Shown here piece after piece: positions 4,097 to 64,000 of a stretch of DNA of 64,000 nt; within the stretch, counting starts at the first letter, position 1; every line of letters starts with the position of its first letter. The DNA comes from Candidatus Poribacteria bacterium (GTDB lineage Bacteria; Poribacteria; WGA-4E; JAJDTR01), in NCBI GenBank assembly GCA_965222225.1, contig CBDCTK010000002.1:1-64000 (forward strand). The letters run 5' to 3'. Made by a program: the position numbers and the translations under genes. A model generated the notes under the pieces. That model made no database searches and was not told the DNA's origin. It saw only the letters and a list, made by a program, of their open reading frames with translations.

Positions 4097-4176
4097 CAAG
4101 AAAAATAAAAATAAAAATCAAAAATAGCCGATACCCTCTATGCAATTGTCAAAGATCAACGCCCAAAAAGGGCGAG

Positions 4177-4249
4177 TGGAGATGAGCGGAATTGAACCGC
4201 TGGCCTCCTGCTTGCAAAGCAGGCGCTCTCCCAACTGAGCTACACCCCC
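4177..4249 (-). tRNA. tRNA-Ala(TGC), CCA not encoded
   Basis: GGGGGTGTAGCTCAGTTGGGAGAGCGCCTGCTTTGCAAGCAGG...TTCAATTCC...CATCTCCA; G3:U70 pair. Confidence 0.95.
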
Positions 4250-4258
4250 ACACGGTAG

Positions 4259-4335
4259 TGGTGGGCTTATCTGGAATCGAACCAGAGACCTCGCGCTTAT
4301 CAGGCGCGCGCTCTAACCGACTGAGCTATAAGCCC
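4259..4335 (-). tRNA. tRNA-Ile(GAT)
   Basis: GGGCTTATAGCTCAGTCGGTTAGAGCGCGCGCCTGATAAGCGCG...TTCGATTCC...AAGCCCACCA. Confidence 0.95.
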
Positions 4336-4436
4336 GCACAGAAGAATACTCAATGAAAACCAAATAGTGATTTGGACACATCCTAAGAATAACGAGCTGA
4401 ACATACCATCCCGATTAGGTCAAGTATGTTATTTAG

Positions 4437-5998
<1,562 letters not shown>

Positions 5999-54252: not shown

Positions 54253-57012
54253 TTAAAGCGGTACAATCTGGACGGGGCAAACCTTGAGTTCAGCAGTTTG
54301 TGTAATCGGATCGTAGCCAGAGCCCGTGAGGATATTGACCGGTACATCACTGAAACTGAAACTGGCGAAAACCGTACCGCGGGGCGAACGGTTTGTGCTT
54401 TTTACCCTAATCTTCACCGAGCCGCGCCGACTGGACATCTTGCACCAATCGCCATCCGTGAGCCCCCACTCTATTGCATCGGCGGGATGCACTTCAAGAA
54501 CTTCCTCTGATAATAAATAATCAATCCCCTGCGCGCGCCCCGTCTGTGTGCGTGTATGGTAGGACGCAAGCCTACGACCCGTCGTGAGCCACACCGGAAA
54601 TTCGTCGCTGATTATTTCTGCAGGATCGCGATAGTTTACAATCGAAAAAATTCCGCGTCCGTTGACGAACTCGCCTTCATGCAATCGCGGGGTGCCGGGG
54701 TGGTCGTCATGGGGCACGGGCCATTGATATTCGCCGGCATCAATTCGCTCCCAATCAAGACCTGCGTAGATAGGCGAAACACGGCATAGTTCGTTGAAAA
54801 TATCCTTGGGGGATTCAAAGTCGAATCCGTTGAACCCGAGTCGTTTGGCAATCTGACAGATAGCCCACCAATCGGGTTTTGCCTGTCCCTGCGCCGGTAC
54901 CGCCGCACGCATCCGCTGAACGCGCCGTTCGGTGTTAGTTTGCACGCCATCGGTTTCCGCCCAAGCAGTCGCCGGCAGGACAACATCGGCGAGTTGTGCT
55001 GTGTCGGTCAGGAAGATATCGATTACTACAAGGTGGTCAAGACTGCGTAACGCATGCTCGCAATGCTCTCGATTCGGGTCGGAGAGAAGGGTGTTCTCCC
55101 CGTCAATTAGCATTGCCCGAATCCGATCGCCGCAAAGATCGAGTGCCGTTACTTTGGTAATACCATTTTCAAGATCGATTGTCCTGCCGTAAAGCTCCCT
55201 GAACTTCTCTTGATTTGCGGCATCGGTAACCGGCTGGAATCCGGGGTAATTGTTGGGAATAGCGCCGCTGTCACCAGCCCCCTGAATGTTGTTCTGGCCG
55301 CGCATCGGGTTTATGCCGGTGCCTTCTCGTCCAACATTGCCGGTCATCAATGCGAGATTACAGAGACTTTGCACATTCTCGACGCCGCAGATGTGTTCAG
55401 TGATGCCAAGCGTGTAGTAGATTGCTCCTTTGTCTGTCCTGCCGTACCAAATTGCCGCGGTTTCGATATCCTTTGCCGGCACATTCGTAATCTCCTCCGC
55501 CCACTCGGGCGTGAACTGCGTGATGTGCTCGAAAAAGTCATCAAACTCGACCGTCCGATTGCGGATAAATTCATCATCCATCAATCCCTCGCGTGCGATC
55601 ACGTGCGCCATGGCGAGTAGCAATGCGGTGTCTGAACCCACTCGCAGGGGGAGATAGAGATCTGCCATTTCGGCGAGCTTAATTCTCCGCGGATCCGCCA
55701 CGATGAGTTTTGCTCCGCGTGCCACAGCCTTCTTGATGCCCGTCGCAGCAACCGGGTGACATTCGGTCATATTGGTTCCAATGCAAAAAATCACGTCCGG
55801 TTTCTGCATGTCAACGAGCGGATTTGACATCGCGCCGCGTCCAATTGTGGCTGCCAGACCGGCAACCGTTGGCGCGTGTCAGGCACGGCTACAGTTATCA
55901 ATATAATTCGTCCCGAAGCCTGCGCGAATGAATTTCTGCATTATGTAAGCCGCTTCGCTCGGCGCGCGGCCAGAAGCAACGCCGTAAACGCTGTCTCGCC
56001 CATATTTCGTTTGGGCTTTTCGAAAACCTTCGGCGGTACGATCAAGCGCTTCATCCCACTCCGCCTCGTGCAACTTTCCGTCTCGTCCGCGGACAAGGGG
56101 TGTGGTCAGTCGATCCGAATGCTGAACGAAATCAAAAGCGAATTGTCCTTTGACACAAAGCGCGCCTTTGTTCGCCGGTCCGTCCATGGCTGGCTGGATG
56201 CCAACGATTTTCTCGTTCTTGGTCAGAACATCAACCGAGCACCCTACGCCGCAGTAGGGACAAATGGTGCGAGTTTTTTCAATTTCACCGGGCAGATCGA
56301 CCGCACGCATCGCCTTTTTGTCGCCAAGCGCCCCGGTTGGGCACGTCTGTACACACTGTCCACAGAAGGTGCACGCAGACTCCTTCAGAAGCCCGTTAAA
56401 CTCCGTGGTAATTTTCGTGTGAAACCCTCGGTTCATGACGCTAATCGCGTAGTCTCCCTCCTGTTCGGCACATACACGAACGCAACGGTAGCAGGAGATA
56501 CAGAGGTCGTAATCGCGCAAGATAAACGGGTTGGTGTCATCTACATTGCTCTTGCCAGATTGTTTGCCCCTGAAACGCCCATTCCGCGTCTGATAGCGAT
56601 CGGCAAGGGTGGAAAGTTCTTGAGAAGCGTAGCCTCGCAGCGGATCGACAGCCGTCTCGGGATTTTCTGACGCAACCATTTCAAGTAGCGTTTTTCGATA
56701 TTTCTCGATTTTCTCCGTCGCCGTTTGGACGACCATGCCAGATGTCACCTTCGTTGTACATGATGCGACAGGATTTCGCGACCCTTCAAGTTCAACGACA
56801 CAGAGTCGACATCCTCCGAAGGCATCAAGGCGAGAATCGTAGCATAACGTAGGGATGTTTTTACGATTGCGGGTTGCAACTTCGTAAATTGTTTCGCCAT
56901 CCGCGAAACTCACTATCTCCCCGTCAAGAGAGATTGTATTTAGCCTTTTTTCTTCGACGGAAGATTCTCGTGTTTGTCGCTGTTTAGTCATTTGATTTCT
57001 CATGGTTTTCAT
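54253..57012 (-). CDS. fdhF: Formate dehydrogenase alpha subunit, selenoprotein (UGA 55879-55881)
   Basis: [2Fe-2S]/[4Fe-4S] N-terminus, CPYCGVGC..C; DNCSRA-U-HAPTVAGL in frame with ORF 54253-55830; PMRGQNNIQG; SECIS GGTTGCC-GGTCT-GGCAGCC. Confidence 0.93.
55849..55867 (-). promoter_or_regulatory. SECIS element of fdh
   Basis: Hairpin with a GG-led loop 18 nt after UGA, resembling the E. coli fdhF SECIS. Confidence 0.8.
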
Positions 57013-57244: not shown

Positions 57245-58921
57245 TCACAGTTTACCCTCAACGTGCCGCTCGACATTCTTCGGGAAGTACCGTATCATGC
57301 TGTCGACAATAAGTGGAGCGGCCATGCCGAGACCGCAGGCGCTCGTCGCTTTCATTGCCTCGCTAATGTCATTTACTTCTCTGAGCCATTCTCCCATATC
57401 CATCGGACCGGCATCTCCCCCTAAACGTTCAGTGAGGCGTTGTGTTCCAATCCGACAGGGAAAACATTTTCCACACGATTCTTCGGCAAAGAATTCCATT
57501 GCGTTGCGCGCTATGCTCACAATGTCTCGGCTGTCGTCGAAAACGATAATTCCGGCAGCGCCTAGCATTGAACGCTTTGCTTTTACACTTGGTTCATCAA
57601 GTGTTACTTCCAGGTCGTTTCCGGAGAGGAAACCGCCCGACAATCCTGCCATAGTGACCGCCTGAATGGAACGATCTCTTTGTGCGCCACCCGCCCAGTC
57701 GTAAAGCAGTGTTTTCAGCGGCAGTCCAAACGGCACCTCGTAGTTGCCCGGTTTCTGAATATCGCCCGAGAGACTGATGACCTTCGTACCGGCGTGACCA
57801 TTTAATCCAAGCCCGCGATACCATTCCGCTCCGCGGTGAAGAATCTGCGGTACAGAAACGAGTGTCTCAACATTATTGACTGCGGTTGGAAGATTCTCAA
57901 ATCCGTGAGTCACCGGATAGGGCGGGCGATTCCTTGGAAACGGGTGTTTGCCTTCAAGACTGTTCAGGAGCGAACCTTCTTCGCCACAGATATATGCCCC
58001 TGCGCCGCGTCGAATGTGGATTTGAAAGTTGAAGTCGGTTCCGAGAATTCCGTCGCCAACAAATCCTGCTTCTTCCGCTTCGGCGATTGTGCGTTCAAGG
58101 ATATCGAAAGTTTCCGGATATTCGTATCGAAGATAAATGAACCCGCGCTCCGCGCCAGTCGCATATGCGGCTAACGTCATACCCTCAATAACCGCGTGCG
58201 GGTCGTAATCTAAAATCGCGCGGTCTTTGAAACATCCGGGTTCCCCTTCATCCGCGTTACAAACAATTGTCTTTGGTTCTCCGGGCGCTTCTGCCACTGA
58301 CTTCCATTTTAGACCGGTGGGGAAACCGGCACCCCCGCGCCCTGCCAACTTACTATCAACAATGAGTTCAATGACGTTGGTTGGGGCCATCTCGTTTATC
58401 GCGTTGGTTAGTCCTTGGTACCCCCCAGTTCGCCGGTATCCTTCTATAGTAGATCTGCCGGGTTCTCGAATGGATGCAAAAACACATTCCTCAATTCCGC
58501 CGGGATTTGGTGGTGGCAGTGGAGAGGGTTTTGGTGCTATCGCCTCCGGGCTTGTGCCGGTCAATACCGAGTGTCCTTGAAGAACTGGCACAAAATCATC
58601 GCACCGACCAGCACACGGCATCGGCGTGGCACCTTTGTCCTTGAGCGCTTCAAGGATTTCTCGTCCGCCGGCTAGGCAGCATACAGGCCCCGTACATACC
58701 CTAGGAGCACTCTGCCCCGGAGAGTTACGGGAGAAGTGATGGTAGAAGGTGACAGTTCCAAACAGGTCTGCCAGAGGAATCCTAAGCCCGATAGCCACAT
58801 CCCGAAGTGCGTCTTCCGAGATAAAACCATCTCGATCGTGGAACGCGTGCAGCAGAGGGAGTAGTGGCGCTGGTTCTTCCCGCCATCTGTCGATTAGCTC
58901 ATGGTTAGTAGGGGTTGCCAT
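57245..58921 (-). CDS. NAD-dependent FDH diaphorase subunit (short NuoE-like domain fused to NuoF-like domain)
   Basis: LAGRGGAGFPTG, NADEGEPG, GAGAYICGEE, ESCGKCFPCRIG...CGLG. Confidence 0.92.
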   Translation of the reverse strand: MATPTNHELIDRWREEPAPLLPLLHAFHDRDGFISEDALRDVAIGLRIPLADLFGTVTFYHHFSRNSPGQSAPRVCTGPVCCLAGGREILEALKDKGATPMPCAGRCDDFVPVLQGHSVLTGTSPEAIAPKPSPLPPPNPGGIEECVFASIREPGRSTIEGYRRTGGYQGLTNAINEMAPTNVIELIVDSKLAGRGGAGFPTGLKWKSVAEAPGEPKTIVCNADEGEPGCFKDRAILDYDPHAVIEGMTLAAYATGAERGFIYLRYEYPETFDILERTIAEAEEAGFVGDGILGTDFNFQIHIRRGAGAYICGEEGSLLNSLEGKHPFPRNRPPYPVTHGFENLPTAVNNVETLVSVPQILHRGAEWYRGLGLNGHAGTKVISLSGDIQKPGNYEVPFGLPLKTLLYDWAGGAQRDRSIQAVTMAGLSGGFLSGNDLEVTLDEPSVKAKRSMLGAAGIIVFDDSRDIVSIARNAMEFFAEESCGKCFPCRIGTQRLTERLGGDAGPMDMGEWLREVNDISEAMKATSACGLGMAAPLIVDSMIRYFPKNVERHVEGKL

Positions 58922-59582
58922 TGTGTAGTCCCTGATCAATTGTGAGGCAGCAAATCTCGGCGTTACGCATTAGCCAATTCGGTTGCCAAAGCCAACCGAC
59001 GTCCCTAAATGGTAGCAATTTTTTCACGGTGGGTCAACACGAATTTTGTGCTCATTTGCCCCCAGCTTTTCAAGGGGCGTGAATTGGCGGTGTTTTTAGA
59101 CTCCGCATCAGTGAGAAATGCTGACAATAGAGATCTCAAAGACGCGAGCTCCCCCACGCCTGAAAGATAACCTGTTTGTAAGTGATTAGTGGCTAGTGAA
59201 AACCCTGAAACCGTATGCGGGATAATGAATGGGATCTCTATCAGGATTTGCTATCGCCTTCGTTATCCACTCGTTTGATCGGTCATTATTCATTCCCTTG
59301 ATCGCCCAATATCCATTCGCTTGATACTATTCGGTCAGTTAATCGCTCCGTAATCAATCGGGGCAAGATGCCCCTCCCACCCGACGGAAATATGGAATGG
59401 TGGGCAGGGGAGTCCTATCGCACTCACTATCCATTCGCTTGATTCCACCCGACATATAGCTGATTGATAACTCGTTTGAGGATTGTCGCGATTCGGAGAT
59501 CGCTCCTACAGAGTTGCGTTATGCGGTCGTTTGATTGAAATTCGTAATATCAGATTATGCATTACGCATTGCGCAATCGTTT

Positions 59583-61382
59583 TTACAGTCTCACGACGGA
59601 GTTGCGGTTGAATCGACGAGCTGCAGATAGATCGACGCGTTGTTGCGCGGTGGTCGTGATGCGAGAGCGGCAAGCGCCTTGCACGGCGTCGGGGGCGTCG
59701 TTATGGTCGGCGGAGGGGAATTGCCTGAACTGTGTCCAGAACTCGCCGGGCAAGTCCTGCTCGTTGAACGCGAGCCATCCATTGGCTATGGCTGGCTCAA
59801 GCGTACCGATGCGGTCTTCTTTGTTTTGGTGCTGCTTGTGATACATGATTCTGCGTTCAAAGCGGTGGCGCTCTTTCATCGCGCGGAACGCATGGTCGGT
59901 AGACAGCAGGATGGTGCCGTCTTTGTCGGGGCGCTGTTCGCAAACGAAGTGGGATTTGGGATACGCGGGCGCCAACATCGCCTCGGCGCGCTGTGCGAGG
60001 AGGATGGCGTGCTCCATCTGGTCGGTGAGTGCGACACGGTCAAGCCATGCCAGCAGGATGTATCCGTTCACGCCGGAGAGGGAGTCGGGGTTCATGGAAC
60101 CGCCGCCGGGGAGAGGTTCCCAAACGATGACAACGGCGCAGGCGTAACTATTGGCAAGCGCATCGCGTCCGCCCATGGTGTCGAGATAGGTGGTGAAGCC
60201 GCCGATGTCGTGCCATGGCACGACACGCCCATCGCTGCGGCGAAAGCCTTCGTCTGCCACGGAGAAGGTGACCGCTTGATCCATCTTGAACAACGCCATC
60301 CCGGGGTAGCGGGCATCGTTCTGGAGTTCGCGCATCACGCTGTGGTAGCCGCGCTCGACGATTTCTTTGCGGACGCGGACGTAGGGAAGTTTTTCTTCCC
60401 AGAGCATCTCTACGTTTGCGTTCATTTCGGATTTTCGGGCTTGGAAAAAGGCGTCGGCGCGCGCTTCGCGTTCATCGTCGTTGAGGGTTGTATCGCTGTA
60501 GACACGTTCCCACTCTTTCCAGAGGCGCTCGGCGGTGGGGTGGTAGATGTCTTTGGGATAACGGACGGCTTGGTAGCGCAGTGTCTGCCAGCCGGGCACG
60601 GTGCGGAGATGTTCGGAGAGGGATTCGGGGTGTTTGACGGTATCGACTATGATGGTGTTGGAGTGCCCGCTTCCGAGATCTCCGGCGTACATGAAGTCGG
60701 TCATGAACCACTCTCTGTCTTCACCCCGCAGATCGGGATTGAGGCAGCGTTTGGGGTCTTCGATGTCGTCGCAGAGCTTGAGTGTGGGGCGGACATCGCC
60801 GAGGAGCGCGCCGCGGGGAGACGAACCGCGTCCGAGAGGTCTCAATCCGATGCCGTTTCGGGTGTCGGTTTCGGTTTTTGTCCACGGGGCGCCGACGAGG
60901 TCGCCGAAATCGCGTCGGATGAGGGGATTGTGTTCGAGGACGTATCGGATTTCTGTTATGCGTTGGCGCGCCATGCGTTCGTTGCGACCAACGATGAGGA
61001 TGAATTCCTCGGGTTGCCTATCCATAACGAGATCGAAGTCCTTGTAGCAGATTCGCCACAGCGGGATTAGGCGATTGACAAGGGTGGTCTTGCCGGTGCC
61101 GCGGGGGGCTTGGACGTTTATCTGCTTTCCGTATTCGCCGGGCTTGACGGCGTTGAGGATATGGATATGAAAATCTTTAAGCGTGAGGACACGATAGCTG
61201 AACTTTCTGATGTACAACCAGACGAATAACTCGGGCCACCGGTACCCGGCGTGCGCCCTAATCATGCCGGCTTCGTCTTGTTGATTGTTCTTCATCTTCT
61301 CGTGTACAGTGTTCAAGACTCTCCAGCGCTCGCAGTGCTGCATTTTTTGAATCATGTCCTTGCTCGGTATTATCTTCGTCAT
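59583..61382 (-). CDS. Phage-type terminase large subunit (true start may be 61295 or 61265)
   Basis: Walker A QAPRGTGKTT, RG...RPTLKLCDDIED Walker B, RELQND linker, RNase H-like YLD..., C-terminal FPSADHNDAPDA. Confidence 0.85.
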   Translation of the reverse strand: MTKIIPSKDMIQKMQHCERWRVLNTVHEKMKNNQQDEAGMIRAHAGYRWPELFVWLYIRKFSYRVLTLKDFHIHILNAVKPGEYGKQINVQAPRGTGKTTLVNRLIPLWRICYKDFDLVMDRQPEEFILIVGRNERMARQRITEIRYVLEHNPLIRRDFGDLVGAPWTKTETDTRNGIGLRPLGRGSSPRGALLGDVRPTLKLCDDIEDPKRCLNPDLRGEDREWFMTDFMYAGDLGSGHSNTIIVDTVKHPESLSEHLRTVPGWQTLRYQAVRYPKDIYHPTAERLWKEWERVYSDTTLNDDEREARADAFFQARKSEMNANVEMLWEEKLPYVRVRKEIVERGYHSVMRELQNDARYPGMALFKMDQAVTFSVADEGFRRSDGRVVPWHDIGGFTTYLDTMGGRDALANSYACAVVIVWEPLPGGGSMNPDSLSGVNGYILLAWLDRVALTDQMEHAILLAQRAEAMLAPAYPKSHFVCEQRPDKDGTILLSTDHAFRAMKERHRFERRIMYHKQHQNKEDRIGTLEPAIANGWLAFNEQDLPGEFWTQFRQFPSADHNDAPDAVQGACRSRITTTAQQRVDLSAARRFNRNSVVRL

Positions 61383-61806
61383 TCGAGTTGTGGTCGATGC
61401 TCAACAATAGGGTTTTTCGGATCGGGGTAATACTACGCGCAATTGACAGCACATCATTCGGGCTTTGTAATTCGATGTGATTGAGACCTTCAAGCACTTT
61501 TTCTATTAGCTTAGATATTGCCATGGAAGCGTGTAATGACGTGCCTTGGGTGTGTCTTTCGCACTCTGCTTGAAAGTGCTTGAGAGTGCTTTCATAGATT
61601 GGCTTCCATTTTTTTGCGAATTTACCGTGGAACGGATTGCAGGTTCGTGTGGCGTCTTGGATTATCCGCCGAGGCACATCTTTCCATTCGGGATGCGCCT
61701 TGATAAGAGCGTCGACAATAGCGGTTGTGGTGGCATTCTGCCAGACCCGTTGATAGATGGTATCGGCGCGCTCTTCGTCTGTGAGTTTGACTTGAACGTG
61801 TTTCAT
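61258..61806 (-). CDS. Probable terminase small subunit / helical DNA-binding protein
   Basis: SD GAAGGAG; 182 aa helical; directly upstream of and overlapping terL; positional inference only. Confidence 0.55.
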   Translation of the reverse strand: MKHVQVKLTDEERADTIYQRVWQNATTTAIVDALIKAHPEWKDVPRRIIQDATRTCNPFHGKFAKKWKPIYESTLKHFQAECERHTQGTSLHASMAISKLIEKVLEGLNHIELQSPNDVLSIARSITPIRKTLLLSIDHNSNDEDNTEQGHDSKNAALRALESLEHCTREDEEQSTRRSRHD

Positions 61807-61979
61807 AATGAGAACTCCTTCGATCAGCGGTTAATGGACAGTGACAAGCAATAACGGAAGAGTCCTGACCGGCAAATTAAAACTGGATCGCTTTTGGACT
61901 CCAGTCGGCTTTACACGCGGTTGCTTGACCCACCACTGATTACGTTACACAATTCAGTTGTTCAGCGAAAAGATGGAAT

Positions 61980-62038
61980 AAAAAAAGCCCACTGGCGGCT
62001 ATCTGTTGATTGACATCAAAGAAAGCCACCAATGGGCT
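61980..62038 (-). terminator. Strong intrinsic terminator upstream of the terminase genes
   Basis: AGCCCATTGGTGGCTTTCTTTGAT-GTCA-ATCAACAGATAGCCGCCAGTGGGCT followed by a T run. Confidence 0.8.
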
Positions 62039-62156
62039 GATTATAGATATGAAATTTAATTCAGCGCGGTTCGCCGCAGTTTGTGTACGGTGGAACGCGC
62101 GCGTATGACTATCAAATCGTAGAAGCGGATCAATACCGCGGGGTACAAGTATGGGG

Positions 62157-62185
62157 ATTGTACCATGTTGGGGCGGATTTTTCAA
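62157..62185 (-). promoter_or_regulatory. Sigma70 promoter facing the terminase genes
   Basis: TTGAAA-N17-TACAAT with TG extension. Confidence 0.65.
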
Positions 62186-62257
62186 TCGTTGAAAATACGT
62201 CTGAACATTGGGGAAGGGGAAAAACAGTGGTCAGTGACCAGTGGCTAGTGGTCAGTA

Positions 62258-62390
62258 GGAAGGGAGGAAGGGGAGAAAACGCGAAGACGGGAAGATTGGA
62301 AGGGAGGAAGAAGGGAGGGAGGATGGAAGAGTGGAAGGAGTGGGAGGGGAGGGGACAGGAAGGGGGTGTATGGGGTGGTTGGGTGAGAGG
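62258..62390 (+). repeat. Purine/G-rich low-complexity tract with GGAAG-based ~8-bp periodicity
   Basis: GGAAGGGAGGAAG...GGAAGATTGGAAGGGAGGAAGAAGGGAGG...; similar tracts at 9075-9115 and 13934-13952. Confidence 0.75.
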
Positions 62391-62789
62391 ATTGTCTGGA
62401 TCGCTGTCTGAATCGCAGATTACACGGATTAAAGGATTTCGCGGATTGGGAGGGAGGGCGTACGGTAAGAGAGAAATCGGCGATCCCTCCCTACAACTGC
62501 TGAATCGCGACCGGGAGGTTGATCCTACAGAGGTCGGTTGTCCGACTACGATGAAGCAATCGAGGAACGGCAAGCTCTATCGGGATTGGATACCGCACCC
62601 AATTTCTCACATGGCACTCCTCTGGAGTGCGGAGATGGGACACATCTCTTATCTACAGATATACCACAGGATTTACTATCGCGCTCCGTCCGGTCGCTTG
62701 ATTCCCGCCTACGGGTTTGGTGCCGCACGACTTTCCCAACTGTTGTACGTATGTACAAGTTCGAGCTAGGTAAAGGCAATAAGATTGGC

Positions 62790-62817
62790 TTGACAAGACG
62801 ATGTCTTATGCTATACT
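62790..62817 (+). promoter_or_regulatory. Sigma70 promoter of the methyltransferase, with a palindromic spacer
   Basis: TTGACA-N16-TATACT (TG extended); AAGAC-GAT-GTCTT inverted repeat. Confidence 0.75.
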
Positions 62818-62998
62818 TATGAGACTTGGATAAACGTGCGAAAACTAGTGGAAGTGGTGGCCAAGACGCTCAGGCGTACCTTGCCACAGGATATGAAATT
62901 CCGTATCTTGATGTAGCGACTAGGAGGACATACCACATATTGGGTAAGCCTTATTGTGGAACACTAGTTGCTTCGATAGGTATCAATCTCTCTCGACT

Positions 62999-64000
62999 AT
63001 GAAACAGCGAGACGGCTTCACAATCCTTGCGGATACAATGGACAAAAAAGCCGCAGTAGAAGGAAAACCTATTGGTAGCGGCGACTGCACGTCAGCATCC
63101 TCGGACGATGCGCTGACCGCCGGCTGCTTATTCAGTGGCATGGGAGGGTTCGCTACAGGACTAGTTCGAGCGGGGTTTACCATTCGTTGGGCATCTGACC
63201 ACGATCAGTTTGCATGCGCCACGTTTCGACACCGATTGCCGAACGTGTCAGTTATCGAAAAAGATGTACAAGAACTTTCAGTGGCCACGGACAGTCTGAC
63301 TACCGTTGATGTAGTAGTCGCAGGTTTCCCTTGTCAGAGCTTCTCAATGGCAGGAAACCGCCTGGGCTTCAAAGATCCGCGGGGTCGCTTGTTTTTCGAA
63401 ATCCCGCGACTGTTGACAGAATTCGAGCTAAACGATCACCCTCGATTGGTGATTTTAGAAAATGTACCGCATTTGCTGCACGGGGCGGAAAAGTCTTGGT
63501 TTGATGAGGTTCGACGCGCATTGCGAAGAGCGGGTTACTGGTTCAGAGAGGAATCGTGCTGGACGGTGAATGTCAAAGATGCAACCGAGCTGCCACAGGA
63601 CCGCGAGCGATTGTTCATGGTCGCGGCCTCGCGCCAGCATTTTCGATACAATCCATTTAAGCCGCCAAATGTCTCAAGCAGTAAGGCAGCGACACGGCGC
63701 CACATCGACGACTCTATCGACCGGCAACGGCCGGGCGCTGATGAGGCATATTTGCCTAAAGACAACCGCTATTATAAGATGATTGACAATGCGATGGCGA
63801 CTGGCGAATCGGATAAGAATATCTATCAATTGCGACGTTCATATGTACGGGAAAAGAAGGAGGGATTGTGTCCTACGTTGACCGCGAACATGGGTATCGG
63901 CGGCCATAATGTACCGTTTATTCGGGATGGTTGGGGTATACGTCGCTTGAGCGTAAAGGAAGTTGCGACGTTCCAGGGGTTCAACGGGGAGGAGCCACTA
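62999..64000 (+). CDS. DNA (cytosine-5) methyltransferase, runs off the window end (absent from the ORF track)
   Basis: LFSGMGG (motif I), AGFPCQSFS (IV), LENV (VI), QDRER (VIII), PTLTANMG, RRLSVKE (IX). Confidence 0.93.
   Translation, partial: MKQRDGFTILADTMDKKAAVEGKPIGSGDCTSASSDDALTAGCLFSGMGGFATGLVRAGFTIRWASDHDQFACATFRHRLPNVSVIEKDVQELSVATDSLTTVDVVVAGFPCQSFSMAGNRLGFKDPRGRLFFEIPRLLTEFELNDHPRLVILENVPHLLHGAEKSWFDEVRRALRRAGYWFREESCWTVNVKDATELPQDRERLFMVAASRQHFRYNPFKPPNVSSSKAATRRHIDDSIDRQRPGADEAYLPKDNRYYKMIDNAMATGESDKNIYQLRRSYVREKKEGLCPTLTANMGIGGHNVPFIRDGWGIRRLSVKEVATFQGFNGEEPL

What the first reader, a model, noticed from the sequence alone, without database searches (positions are those of the whole stretch)
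59583..61806. Orphan terminase small+large pair with no other phage genes in view
Seen: an intact TerL (ATPase and nuclease motifs) coupled to an upstream 182-aa gene. It is flanked by REP-rich spacers, the fdh operon and a DNA methylase, with no portal, capsid, tail or integrase. Known: TerS/TerL normally sit next to a portal gene. Inference: this is a domesticated DNA-packaging motor. It could be part of a split gene-transfer-agent-like system or a packaging-hijack/anti-phage module rather than simple prophage debris, since both ORFs are intact while many neighbours are decayed.
Basis: partly seen in the sequence, partly recalled or inferred. Interest (0 to 1): 0.75.

Follow-up and report, generated by a model that had tools for sequence, protein, structure and literature searches.

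The report
Dispersed stand-alone terminase gene pairs
A sponge-symbiont-type bacterium keeps four intact, separately placed copies of a phage DNA-packaging enzyme pair, each behind the same private promoter and a built-in transcription stop, with no phage head genes beside them, which points to a host-kept phage-derived system of a kind not yet described.

Summary
ORF 59583-61382(-) is a true large terminase: PHROG phrog_38 E 5e-50, TerL fold, invariant ATPase and nuclease residues. An overlapping 182-aa ORF lies upstream, between an fdh operon and a C5 methylase, with no head genes.

It is not an orphan. The genome holds 4 intact copies (78-83% identical) at unrelated loci. 18 of 41 related genomes hold 1-8 matches each. 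Across 44 loci only the small upstream ORF travels with TerL.

Each module also has a family-specific promoter, a ~170-nt leader and a long intrinsic terminator before the small ORF. TerL dN/dS is 0.05-0.14. The small ORF is a swappable cassette, about 28% identical between paralogues.

No portal was found in this genome. In 8 of 9 sister genomes one intact portal-like gene exists, and in 7 it lies 6-18 kb from one copy.

Prophage debris and mis-assembly are rejected. Best reading (about 0.4): a selectively kept, co-regulated terminase module gated by terminator read-through, working on capsids encoded elsewhere, either an infecting phage's or the portal locus of relatives. The function is inferred and no expression data could be obtained. 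Verdict: new variant of a known kind, interest about 0.68.

The parts
59583..61382 (-). TerL-like large terminase ORF. It is 599 aa as the longest ORF. The likely true start is the ATG at 61265 (codon 40), which gives about 560 aa.
   Evidence: PHROG phrog_38, E 5e-50. TerL fold. Invariant ATPase and nuclease motifs. DNA and protein conservation among paralogues begins near codon 40-57.
61258..61806 (-). Small upstream ORF (182 aa). It is TerS-like by position and architecture, and it is the hypervariable cassette of the module.
   Evidence: An ORF in this position was found in 35 of 44 loci. It has no Pfam or PHROG hit itself. In 3 of 19 family members scanned, the ORF at the same position matches PHROG TerS phrog_4102, E 9e-24. 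The model shows an N-terminal 3-helix domain plus long helices. Atlas feature neighbours include Mu gp27 and Terminase_5 clusters. It is 28-30% identical between paralogues whose TerL are 78-83% identical.
61807..61979 (-). Spacer between the terminator and the small ORF. It has no sigma-70-like promoter of its own.
   Evidence: The promoter scan lists no minus-strand site between 61980 and 61806. Spacer length varies from about 60 to 400 nt among copies.
61980..62038 (-). Intrinsic terminator: a long hairpin (61987-62038) followed by a T7 tract (61980-61986).
   Evidence: RNAalifold on 11 copies predicts 19 pairs, 8 of them with compensatory double changes. Folding energy is -34.9 kcal/mol for the 70 nt before the T tract. 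In many copies the apical loop carries an insert of about 100 nt.
62039..62156 (-). 5' part of the leader transcript (about 118 nt), with conserved blocks such as CGCGGCAYTGGTCCGC and AACCGCGCTGAACTAAAT.
   Evidence: Alignment of copies. No Rfam family matches at E<=1. No consensus fold was found for this part.
62157..62185 (-). Family-specific promoter TTGAAAAATCCGCCCCAACATGGTACAAT: -35, a conserved 17-nt spacer, and an extended -10.
   Evidence: Scan score 10 of 12 with TG. The motif occurs at 21 of 24 genus loci (<=4 mismatches) and at 0 of 20 loci from other genera. This genome has only 4 matches, all at the four modules. Five sister genomes have 18 matches and 0 for the reversed control. 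By coordinates, 15 are at TerL copies, 2 are second sites in portal-linked loci, and 1 is an orphan.
62200..62400 (.). Polypyrimidine tract on the module's strand (G-rich on the + strand) just upstream of the promoter. Whether it belongs to the module is uncertain.
   Evidence: GC skew is 0.46 in 62000-62499. Sequence read. Shorter equivalents exist in copies B and C and in the G007 remnant.
59261..59535 (.). REP-like array between the TerL stop and the fdh operon. It is a boundary zone, not part of the conserved unit.
   Evidence: 5 copies of a 19-nt unit. Paralogue similarity ends at the TerL stop or up to about 48 nt after it, and in one pair about 12 nt before it.

Best explanation
The locus is one member of a lineage-specific family of compact modules of about 2.6-3 kb. 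The order is: private promoter, leader of about 170 nt ending in a strong intrinsic terminator, small DNA-recognition (TerS-like) gene, then a translationally coupled TerL gene. The family derives from the packaging genes of a phrog_38-type (Mu-like/Halcyonevirus-like) phage. It now sits at fixed chromosomal sites in several copies per genome and is kept by purifying selection.

SHOWN:
- TerL identity, with intact ATPase and nuclease sites.
- Four intact dispersed copies.
- Only the small ORF co-travels with TerL.
- The promoter is exclusive to the family.
- The terminator is supported by covariation.
- The small ORF is replaced as a cassette at constant sites.
- No portal was found in this genome by five portal models, of which three rang in control genomes. 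A single portal-like gene lies 6-18 kb from one copy in 7 sister genomes.

INFERRED mechanism:
1. The two genes have no promoter of their own. They are made only when transcription reads through the leader terminator, as in a lambda-like late-operon checkpoint. The trigger would be a factor acting on the conserved promoter/leader, most likely supplied during infection by a related phage or by the portal-linked locus.
2. The small protein then binds its own cognate DNA site, and TerL cuts there.
3. TerL docks on procapsids encoded elsewhere and loads the DNA it is bound to.
4. This competes with phage genome packaging and may yield particles carrying host DNA.
5. Several modules with different small subunits give several DNA specificities.
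For: TerL identity: PHROG E 5e-50; fold; invariant catalytic residues across 16 members down to 32% identity. The nearest phage and viral-contig relatives (25-35% identical) sit in normal TerS-TerL-portal order.

Multicopy and stand-alone:
- 4 intact copies in G000.
- 18 of 41 related genomes are positive, with 1-8 matches each.
- In 44 loci, TerL plus an upstream ORF is the only recurrent pair.

Selection: TerL dN/dS is 0.045-0.141 and the small ORF 0.18-0.52 in 12 pairs.

Regulatory unit:
- Promoter motif exclusive to the modules.
- Terminator with 8 of 19 pairs compensated.
- A strict promoter-then-terminator pair lies upstream of 15 of 24 genus loci and 7 of 20 loci of other genera, against 7 of 1500 random windows.
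- No other promoter before the small ORF.
- The same promoter also precedes the c67-c24-c25 operon in a portal-linked locus.

Cassette behaviour:
- At shared sites the host flanks are 84-92% identical and TerL 77-84%, while the small-ORF region is often unalignable.
- The tree is discordant with position.
- A tract of 97-100% identity covers the upstream region, leader, small ORF and the first ~400 nt of TerL between two species whose flanks are 83-95% identical.

Capsid link: an intact portal-like ORF (phrog_156) is present in 8 of 9 sister genomes. In 7 it lies 6-18 kb upstream of one copy, and in the eighth about 88 kb away. It lies 2-4 kb downstream in 3 of 7 genomes of another genus.

TerS lead: Atlas feature neighbours are Mu gp27 and Terminase_5 clusters. 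3 of 19 ORFs at the same position match PHROG TerS.
Against: - No expression data exist.
- No antiterminator or regulator was identified or searched for.
- The promoter motif has 0 matches in 2.9 million viral contigs, so no phage sharing this control region is known.
- This genome, and all 4 genomes of a second genus with 5-8 matches each, show no portal by phrog_156, PF04860 or PF16510. No HK97 capsid gene is linked to any module. A capsid partner is therefore hypothetical here.
- The small protein matches no TerS family by HMM or by fold search.
- Several copies per genome are not needed for a simple packaging function.
Confidence: 0.4

Rival explanations
1. Anti-phage nuclease without packaging. 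The small subunit recognises pac-like sites of incoming phages and TerL cuts them. The module would act like a phage-derived restriction system, and cassette turnover would track phage diversity.
For: There is a hypervariable recognition subunit beside a conserved enzyme. Genomes with several copies have no detectable portal. The multicopy pattern suits a set of different specificities.
Against: No PADLOC family matches either protein. The translocase motifs are as conserved as the nuclease residues. A portal-like gene is retained near one copy in 7 of 9 sister genomes. Small-ORF dN/dS is 0.18-0.52, so there is no sign of positive selection.
Confidence: 0.2
2. Selfish mobile element. The module spreads by itself, with TerL's RNase H-like nuclease and the small DNA-binding protein acting as a homing or transposition machinery, or it is carried by the Cre-like recombinase elements seen nearby.
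For: The module is multicopy and dispersed. Within-genome sister copies exist. The repeat unit has sharp ends. The tree is discordant with position. A Cre-like recombinase has 5 close copies, 2 of them 3-7 kb upstream of modules B and D, and it also lies near 3 modules in relatives.
Against: The closest within-genome pairs are only 87-94% identical in DNA. No terminal inverted repeats flank the window copy. The same sites are occupied across species, with flanks showing vertical descent. TerL is under strong purifying selection over long times. Recombinase position and orientation vary.
Confidence: 0.15
3. Component of a dispersed gene-transfer-agent-like system. The portal-linked locus of the genus supplies heads, and all modules feed DNA to them. 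This genome has lost the head locus recently.
For: The portal-like ORF is intact in 8 of 9 sister genomes, beside conserved unknown genes (c23, c24, c25, c26, c67) that share the module's promoter. G000 keeps only a 70-aa remnant of c26.
Against: No capsid, tail sheath or other structural family was detected. The neighbours have no known family. A second genus with 5-8 matches per genome has no portal match. One terminase would be enough for a GTA.
Confidence: 0.15
4. Ordinary prophage debris or an assembly artefact at a prophage edge.
For: TerL is a phage gene. Some decay does occur: fragmented copies in G003 and G005, a promoter/leader/5'-small-ORF remnant at this very site in G007, and a small-ORF remnant at G000 C2:2388079-2388763.
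Against: The same two genes plus leader are retained intact at 4 loci here and at many loci elsewhere. dN/dS is 0.05-0.14. No other phage gene is shared between loci. The locus is 59 kb inside a 5.6-Mb contig, and the same site is occupied by the same architecture in a single-contig sister genome.
Confidence: 0.05

Closest known systems
Phage terminase holoenzyme (TerS + TerL) of phrog_38-type phages, for example Paenibacillus phage Tripp, Mu-like phages such as BalMu-1, and IMG/VR contigs L084/L085
   Same: TerL fold, Walker A/B motifs, nuclease acidic residues and size. A small gene lies immediately upstream with overlapping stop and start.
   Different: In the phages, TerL is followed by portal, minor capsid, scaffold and major capsid genes. 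Here it is followed by host genes, it is present in 4 copies, and it carries its own promoter, leader and terminator. Identity to the phage proteins is only 25-35%.
Gene transfer agents (for example RcGTA; recalled, and PMC5026251 and PMC5721377 seen only as search listings)
   Same: Phage-derived packaging genes kept in the host chromosome under purifying selection. The loci are dispersed and possibly co-regulated.
   Different: GTAs have one terminase and a full head-tail cluster. Here there are several terminase pairs, no structural genes were detected in this genome, and sister genomes hold only a portal-like gene.
Phage satellites that redirect packaging (SaPI/PICI TerS; cf-PICIs with their own TerS, TerL and capsid; recalled, and PMC10085698 and others seen only as listings)
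   Same: A host-resident element encodes its own terminase subunit or subunits. Presumably it is expressed in response to a helper and acts on capsids it may not encode.
   Different: No integrase, att sites, replication or repressor module was recognised as part of the unit. The copies sit at fixed sites, are inherited vertically, and end at about the TerL stop. TerL is encoded as well as TerS, without capsid genes.
Lambda-type late-operon control (pR'-6S RNA-tR' with Q antitermination; recalled)
   Same: A strong promoter is followed by a short terminated transcript placed ahead of the terminase genes. The promoter spacer is conserved, as expected for a factor-binding site.
   Different: No Q-like gene, qut element or pause signal was identified. 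Nothing on read-through was tested.
Specificity-subunit shuffling in Type I restriction-modification systems (hsdS; recalled analogy only)
   Same: A conserved enzyme gene sits beside a recognition-subunit gene that is exchanged as a cassette between paralogous loci.
   Different: The proteins are unrelated. No inverted repeats or invertase were shown to drive the exchange.

Membership tests
Large terminase subunit (TerL) | N-terminal ASCE ATPase with Walker A, Walker B and a coupling (C) motif | tested here: met
   APRGxxKxT 92-100, DD 205/206 and DTV 247-249 are invariant in 16 sequences. The fold matches TerL ATPase domains.
Large terminase subunit (TerL) | C-terminal RNase H-like nuclease with conserved acidic residues | tested here: met
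   D401, E482/D486 and D562/D565 are invariant. Foldseek matches terminase nuclease domains (6m5t, 5m1f, 4iox) at TMt about 0.5. The assignment of these residues to catalysis is by analogy.
Large terminase subunit (TerL) | Match to a curated family model | tested here: inconclusive
   PHROG phrog_38 matches at E 5e-50. Pfam gives no hit at E<=1. NCBIfam T7 and psiM2 terminase hits are below their cut-offs.
Large terminase subunit (TerL) | Encoded next to portal and head genes of a virus or provirus | tested here: not met
   Window flanks are fdh genes and a methylase. No shared structural gene cluster appears in 44 loci. The genome has no match to five portal models. Two of these, PF12236 and PF06074, rang in no control genome.
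Large terminase subunit (TerL) | ATP-driven DNA packaging into procapsids | not testable with these tools
   Needs biochemistry.
Small terminase subunit (TerS) | Sequence or fold match to a TerS family | tested here: not met
   P0002 has no Pfam or PHROG hit. 0 of 10 further members hit a TerS family. Foldseek BFVD gives 0 hits at E<=0.001. hhalign shows no link to the PHROG-TerS-type ORFs of L055-57. There are leads only: Atlas neighbours are Mu gp27 and Terminase_5 clusters.
Small terminase subunit (TerS) | Gene directly upstream of TerL and coupled to it; about 150-200 aa; N-terminal helical DNA-binding domain, central long helices, flexible C-terminal tail | tested here: met
   Position and overlap. 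The model has helices 10-56 at pLDDT>90, long helices 65-107 and 116-141, and a low-confidence acidic tail. In 3 of 19 family members scanned, the ORF at the same position is a PHROG TerS.
Small terminase subunit (TerS) | Ring oligomer that binds a pac/cos site and TerL | not testable with these tools
   Needs experiments.
Gene transfer agent | Head (and tail) structural genes in the same genome | tested here: not met
   G000 has no portal, sheath or second TerL match. It has one lone PF05065 capsid-like ORF about 500 kb away, which is unique to G000 among 41 genomes.
Gene transfer agent | Vertical inheritance with purifying selection | tested here: met
   Shared sites across species. dN/dS is 0.05-0.14.
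Phage satellite (PICI-like) | Integrase, att sites, and replication and regulation modules within the element | tested here: not met
   The conserved unit is only promoter, leader and two genes, ending at about the TerL stop. Cre-like recombinase copies occur near some modules, but at varying distance and strand.
Known anti-phage defence systems (PADLOC-DB 2.0) | Match of either protein to a defence-system model | tested here: not met
   0 families for both proteins at E<=0.1.
Known RNA families (Rfam 15) | Match of the leader to a curated RNA family | tested here: not met
   0 matches at E<=1 in 58900-63000, both strands.

The most novel reading that the evidence does not exclude
An 'outsourced' gene-transfer and defence system. 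Several chromosomally dispersed terS-terL operons each have their own DNA specificity, and all sit under one private promoter and a leader terminator. A factor from an infecting phage unlocks them. They then seize that phage's procapsids and fill them with host chromosome starting at each module. This blocks the phage and at the same time spreads host DNA. Cassette exchange of the small subunit re-targets the system.
Probability: 0.15. Interest if true: 0.9.

Novelty: new variant of a known kind. Interest (0 to 1): 0.68.

Why it matters
Terminases are treated as hallmark genes of viruses and proviruses, and a lone terminase is normally written off as debris. Here a terminase pair behaves like a host gene family. 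It occurs in several copies, sits at fixed sites, has its own promoter and a leader terminator, is under strong purifying selection, and has an exchangeable recognition subunit.

If the modules act on capsids made elsewhere, they would be a minimal form of packaging hijack or gene transfer, in uncultivated symbionts where horizontal exchange and phage defence are hard to study. If they act alone, they would be a new phage-derived nuclease system.

There is also a practical point. Such modules can make virus-detection tools call host DNA viral.

Tried and rejected
- Expression: the look-up of sequencing runs listed 3 RNA runs holding only 0.06-0.09 of the sampled words. Nothing was laid, so these runs say nothing.
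- Complex prediction on TerL 1-360 with the small protein returned 'no answer'. It is not evidence either way.
- Rfam found no family for the leader.
- RNAalifold found no consensus fold for the 5' leader part.
- A sequence search of PDB with TerL gave only chance P-loop hits to thymidylate kinases, E>=0.06.
- Foldseek BFVD for the small protein gave nothing at E<=0.001.
- Atlas for the 527-aa gene downstream of portal-linked copies gave no usable lead.
- PHROG and Pfam on the portal-linked neighbours recognised only the portal.
- Portal, minor capsid, scaffold and capsid proteins of phage Tripp find nothing in G000 by tblastn at E<=1.
- The promoter pattern has 0 matches in viral contigs. It matches 5 metagenome stretches, none encoding TerL, the small ORF, the portal or the linked genes. 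These are treated as chance.
- Terminal inverted repeats around the module: none. The flanking direct repeats are members of abundant REP-like families.
- Literature: 'Poribacteria' + 'terminase' gave 6 papers, none with both terms in the title or abstract. Orphan/stand-alone/terminase-like terms gave 34 papers, and none of the 25 listed is about such modules. One broad search was uninformative. Only listings were seen. No paper was read.
Full report
OBSERVATION.

On the minus strand, ORF 59583..61382 (599 aa, P0001) and ORF 61258..61806 (182 aa, P0002) are both open.

P0001 is a large terminase.
- It matches PHROG phrog_38 'terminase large subunit' at E 5.2e-50.
- Its AlphaFold model has mean pLDDT 85.4. 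The best PDB matches are large terminases of PhiV-1, T4, T7, HK97, D6E and Sf6.
- In an alignment of 16 family members down to 32% identity, several motifs are invariant: Walker A (A92 P93 R94 G95 K98 T100), Walker B (D205 D206), a DTV motif (247-249), and acidic residues of the nuclease half (D401, E482, D486, D562, D565).
- Pfam finds nothing, and NCBIfam gives only sub-threshold T7/psiM2 terminase hits. It is therefore a divergent TerL.

P0002 matches no Pfam, PHROG, NCBIfam or PADLOC family.

A REP-like array lies at 59261-59535.

The 125-nt overlap of the two ORFs is probably a longest-ORF artefact. An ATG at TerL codon 40 overlaps the small ORF's stop (ATGATTAG). Conservation among copies starts about there.

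NOT AN ORPHAN: A MULTICOPY MODULE.

The window is bases 1-64000 of a 5.64-Mb contig. The genome (94.9% complete, 2 contigs) holds four full-length copies without stops. They lie at C2:59586-61382(-), 3331020-3332810(-), 3775029-3776801(+) and 4168492-4170282(+), and are 78-83% identical in protein.

Each copy has its own upstream ORF of 176-182 aa. The flanking genes are unrelated between copies.

Among 41 genomes of the order (this one included), 18 have matches. That is 8 of the 9 other genomes of the genus, 4 of 4 in a second genus, 3 of 7 in a third, and single genomes in two further genera. There are 1-8 matches per genome, mostly full-length and without stops, plus a few fragments.

I fetched +/-8 kb around 40 of these copies and clustered all 730 ORFs of the 44 loci.
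- TerL is in 44 of 44 loci.
- An upstream same-strand ORF abutting TerL was found in 35 of 44. These ORFs fall into several clusters, the largest present in 22 loci.
- No other cluster accompanies TerL consistently.
- The next most frequent clusters (c2 in 12 loci, c3 and c4 in 9 each) sit at varying distance and strand. They were not annotated.

A wide word-based protein search found 147 relatives. The only source name seen was 'hypothetical protein [Candidatus Poribacteria bacterium]'.

A profile search of 1.84 billion representatives found about 20 close family members (E<1e-114). After those comes a continuum of thousands of weaker matches: 7095 at E<=0.001.

A SHARED CONTROL REGION.

Upstream of the small ORF, all four copies carry the same features in the same order.
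1. A near-consensus promoter with a conserved spacer, TTGA(A/C)AAA(T/C)CCGCCCnAACATGnTAnAAT. In the window it lies at 62185..62157(-) and scores 10 of 12 with an extended -10.
2. A leader with conserved blocks.
3. A long hairpin followed by T7-T9. In the window the hairpin is at 62038-61987 and the T tract at 61986-61980.
4. A variable spacer of 60-400 nt.

The promoter motif is confined to the family.
- In this genome it occurs only at the four modules (4 matches at <=3 mismatches).
- It occurs at 21 of 24 loci of the genus (<=4 mismatches) and at 0 of 20 loci from other genera. It also has three second sites.
- In five sister genomes it occurs 18 times, against 0 for the reversed pattern. 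By coordinates, 15 of these lie just upstream of TerL copies, 2 lie inside portal-linked loci, and 1 is elsewhere.

The hairpin is a real RNA structure. On 11 copies RNAalifold predicts 19 pairs, of which 8 keep pairing through changes on both sides. Its energy is about -35 kcal/mol. In many copies the apical loop carries an insert of about 100 nt without disturbing the stem.

Copies from other genera have different sequences but the same layout of strong promoter, short RNA, terminator and genes.

With strict criteria, a promoter-then-terminator pair lies upstream of 15 of 24 genus loci and 7 of 20 other loci. The same criteria find a pair in 7 of 1500 random 1.5-kb windows of this genome.

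No other promoter-like site lies between the terminator and the small ORF. Rfam has no match.

I infer that the two genes are expressed only by read-through of this terminator. This was not tested.

SELECTION, SITES AND CASSETTES.

TerL dN/dS is 0.045-0.141 in 12 orthologous or paralogous pairs. For the small ORF it is 0.18-0.52.

Several chromosomal sites are shared between species:
- window copy and L034 of G005;
- copy B with L026, L038 and L043;
- copy C with L035;
- copy D with L030, L036 and L040.

The TerL tree does not follow the sites, and copies within one genome are often sisters.

At shared sites the host flanks are 84-92% identical and TerL is 77-84% identical. The small-ORF region is often unalignable. 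Small proteins of paralogues are 28-30% identical while their TerL are 78-83% identical.

Between the window copy and its positional counterpart in G005, identity is 97-100% from about 450 nt upstream of the promoter to about 400 nt into TerL. It is 83-95% in the rest of TerL and in the fdh genes. That is a recent recombination tract.

Similarity between paralogues runs from a few hundred nt upstream of the promoter to roughly the TerL stop codon. The end point ranges from about 12 nt before the stop to about 48 nt after it.

No terminal inverted repeats flank the window copy. The closest within-genome pairs are 87-94% identical in DNA.

So the sites are old, and the unit is maintained as a whole. 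Its 5' half, holding the control region and recognition subunit, is exchanged between copies and lineages by recombination.

Decay also happens.
- G007 keeps only the promoter, leader and 5' small ORF at the window's site.
- G000 has a small-ORF remnant at C2:2388079-2388763.
- G003 and G005 have fragmented copies.

HEAD GENES.

In this genome I found no match to the following:
- portal models PF04860, PF05133 and phrog_156, whose controls rang;
- PF12236 and PF06074, whose controls were silent, so these two say nothing;
- a second TerL type (PF03354);
- a tail sheath (PF04984).

One capsid-like ORF (PF05065, E 7e-15, 230 aa) lies at C2:561243-561935, among ORFs without family matches and ordinary host genes. 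It is found in this genome only, 1 of 41.

The nearest cultured-phage TerL (25% identity, Paenibacillus phage Tripp) is followed by portal, minor capsid, scaffold and capsid genes. Of these, only TerL finds anything in this genome.

The two closest viral contigs (34-35% identity) show TerS (or a Mom-like gene), TerL, a large ORF and a phrog_156 portal.

Searching phrog_156 in the relatives changed the picture.
- An intact portal-like ORF (538-577 aa open frames) occurs once per genome in 8 of the 9 other genomes of the genus.
- In 7 of those 8 it lies 5.7-18 kb upstream of one particular TerL clade. In the eighth it lies 88 kb away.
- In 3 of 7 genomes of another genus it lies 2-4 kb downstream of their single copy.

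That locus also holds conserved genes of unknown family. One operon there (c67-c24-c25) sits behind the same promoter motif.

G000 lacks the portal and these genes. It keeps only a 70-aa remnant of one of them.

The second genus has 5-8 TerL matches per genome and has no match to phrog_156, PF04860 or PF16510.

IS THE SMALL PROTEIN A TerS?

For:
- its position and coupling to TerL;
- its size;
- a confident N-terminal three-helix domain followed by long helices and an acidic tail;
- PHROG TerS matches (phrog_4102, E 9e-24) for 3 of the 19 same-position ORFs scanned;
- language-model neighbours that include Mu gp27 (28% of one cluster) and Terminase_5 clusters.

Against:
- no HMM or fold match for P0002 or for 10 further members;
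- no profile link to the PHROG-type ORFs. It does link to a second subfamily of these ORFs (probability 89%, E 2e-6).

I call it TerS-like by inference.

INTERPRETATION.

Prophage debris and mis-assembly are excluded by the copy number, the intactness, dN/dS, the shared sites and the private control region.

What is shown is a host-maintained, co-regulated family of terminase modules with an exchangeable recognition subunit.

What I infer:
- The leader terminator keeps the genes off until a factor acting on the conserved promoter/leader allows read-through.
- The enzyme then cuts and translocates DNA chosen by its small subunit into procapsids encoded elsewhere. These could come from an infecting phage of the same packaging type, or from the portal-linked locus in relatives.
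- The result is interference with phage packaging and possibly transfer of host DNA.

I put this at about 0.4. The rivals are:
- a packaging-independent defence nuclease (0.2);
- a selfish mobile unit (0.15);
- a part of a dispersed GTA-like system whose head locus this genome lost (0.15);
- debris (0.05).

COMPARISON AND NOVELTY.

It works like a terminase and is a TerL by fold and motifs, but it fails the contextual criterion of a viral packaging gene.
- It resembles GTAs in being kept by the host. Unlike them it lacks structural genes here and is multicopy.
- It resembles PICI-type satellites in encoding packaging specificity apart from capsids. Unlike them it has no integrase, att or replication module and sits at fixed sites.
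- Its control region is laid out like a lambda late promoter with its terminated 6S RNA (recalled). No Q-like factor is known.

My three literature searches on this question found no description of such modules. Only listings were seen.

I rate it a new variant of a known kind (domesticated or satellite-like phage packaging genes), interest 0.68.

LIMITS.
- There is no expression evidence.
- Counts across related genomes are not independent.

Noticed in passing
window 54253-57012 (-): The formate-dehydrogenase alpha gene looks split (377 aa + 525 aa). In fact it is one frame with a single TGA at codon 378, in the context CSRA*HAPTV. This is most likely selenocysteine, not decay. No SECIS element or sel genes were looked for.
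   Followed up: partly
G000:C2:561243-561935 (-), locus L065 7244-7936: A lone 230-aa HK97-type capsid-like ORF (PF05065, E 7e-15). It lies among ORFs without family matches and host genes. It was found in this genome only, out of the 41 searched.
   Followed up: partly
L025 998-2617 and the equivalent ORFs in 7 other genomes of the genus; L061-L063: An intact portal-like gene (phrog_156, E about 1e-12; weak match to P22_portal). It is linked to one TerL clade together with conserved genes of unknown family. One of their operons carries the module's promoter motif. This could be the head part of a GTA-like or cryptic element. It is not found in the window's genome.
   Followed up: partly
G000:C2:3335622-3336530 and four further close copies (4161171-4162079, 1313887-1314795, 3989323-3990231, 460255-461199): A Cre-like tyrosine recombinase (303 aa; E 1e-13 to Cre in PDB) is present in 5 close copies (82-100% identical). 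Two lie 3-7 kb upstream of modules D and B. Copies also lie upstream of modules L036, L038 and L043 in relatives, at varying distance and strand. There may be a link to module or cassette mobility.
   Followed up: partly
terminator loops of many copies, for example L004 around 4141-4439 (copy D), L027, L035: An insert of about 100 nt (…GGTCAGTGGTTAGTGGTCAGTAAC…CCAAGAGAATATCTTGG…) sits in the apical loop of the leader terminator in many copies. It looks like a miniature inverted-repeat element. A similar piece occurs elsewhere in the genome at C2:2938246-2938400.
   Followed up: no
window 62200-62400: A strongly G-rich (+ strand) polypurine/polypyrimidine tract lies just upstream of the promoter (GC skew 0.46). 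Shorter versions occur at other copies. It also creates a spurious 228-aa ORF (62083-62769) that has no family match.
   Followed up: no
window 59600-62650 versus L034 (G005): A tract of about 1.65 kb is 97-100% identical between two species whose flanking genes are 83-95% identical. It covers the control region, the small ORF and the first ~400 nt of TerL. This indicates recent inter-lineage recombination.
   Followed up: yes
G000:C2:2388079-2388763 and C2:2001977-2002186: A degraded small-ORF remnant with no TerL beside it (about 76% DNA identity to L025's small ORF). Separately, a 70-aa remnant of the 527-aa gene that follows TerL in the portal-linked loci of relatives.
   Followed up: partly
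G001:C1:2385635-2385663: A perfect copy of the module promoter motif with no TerL match nearby. It may be another decayed module or another gene under the same control.
   Followed up: no
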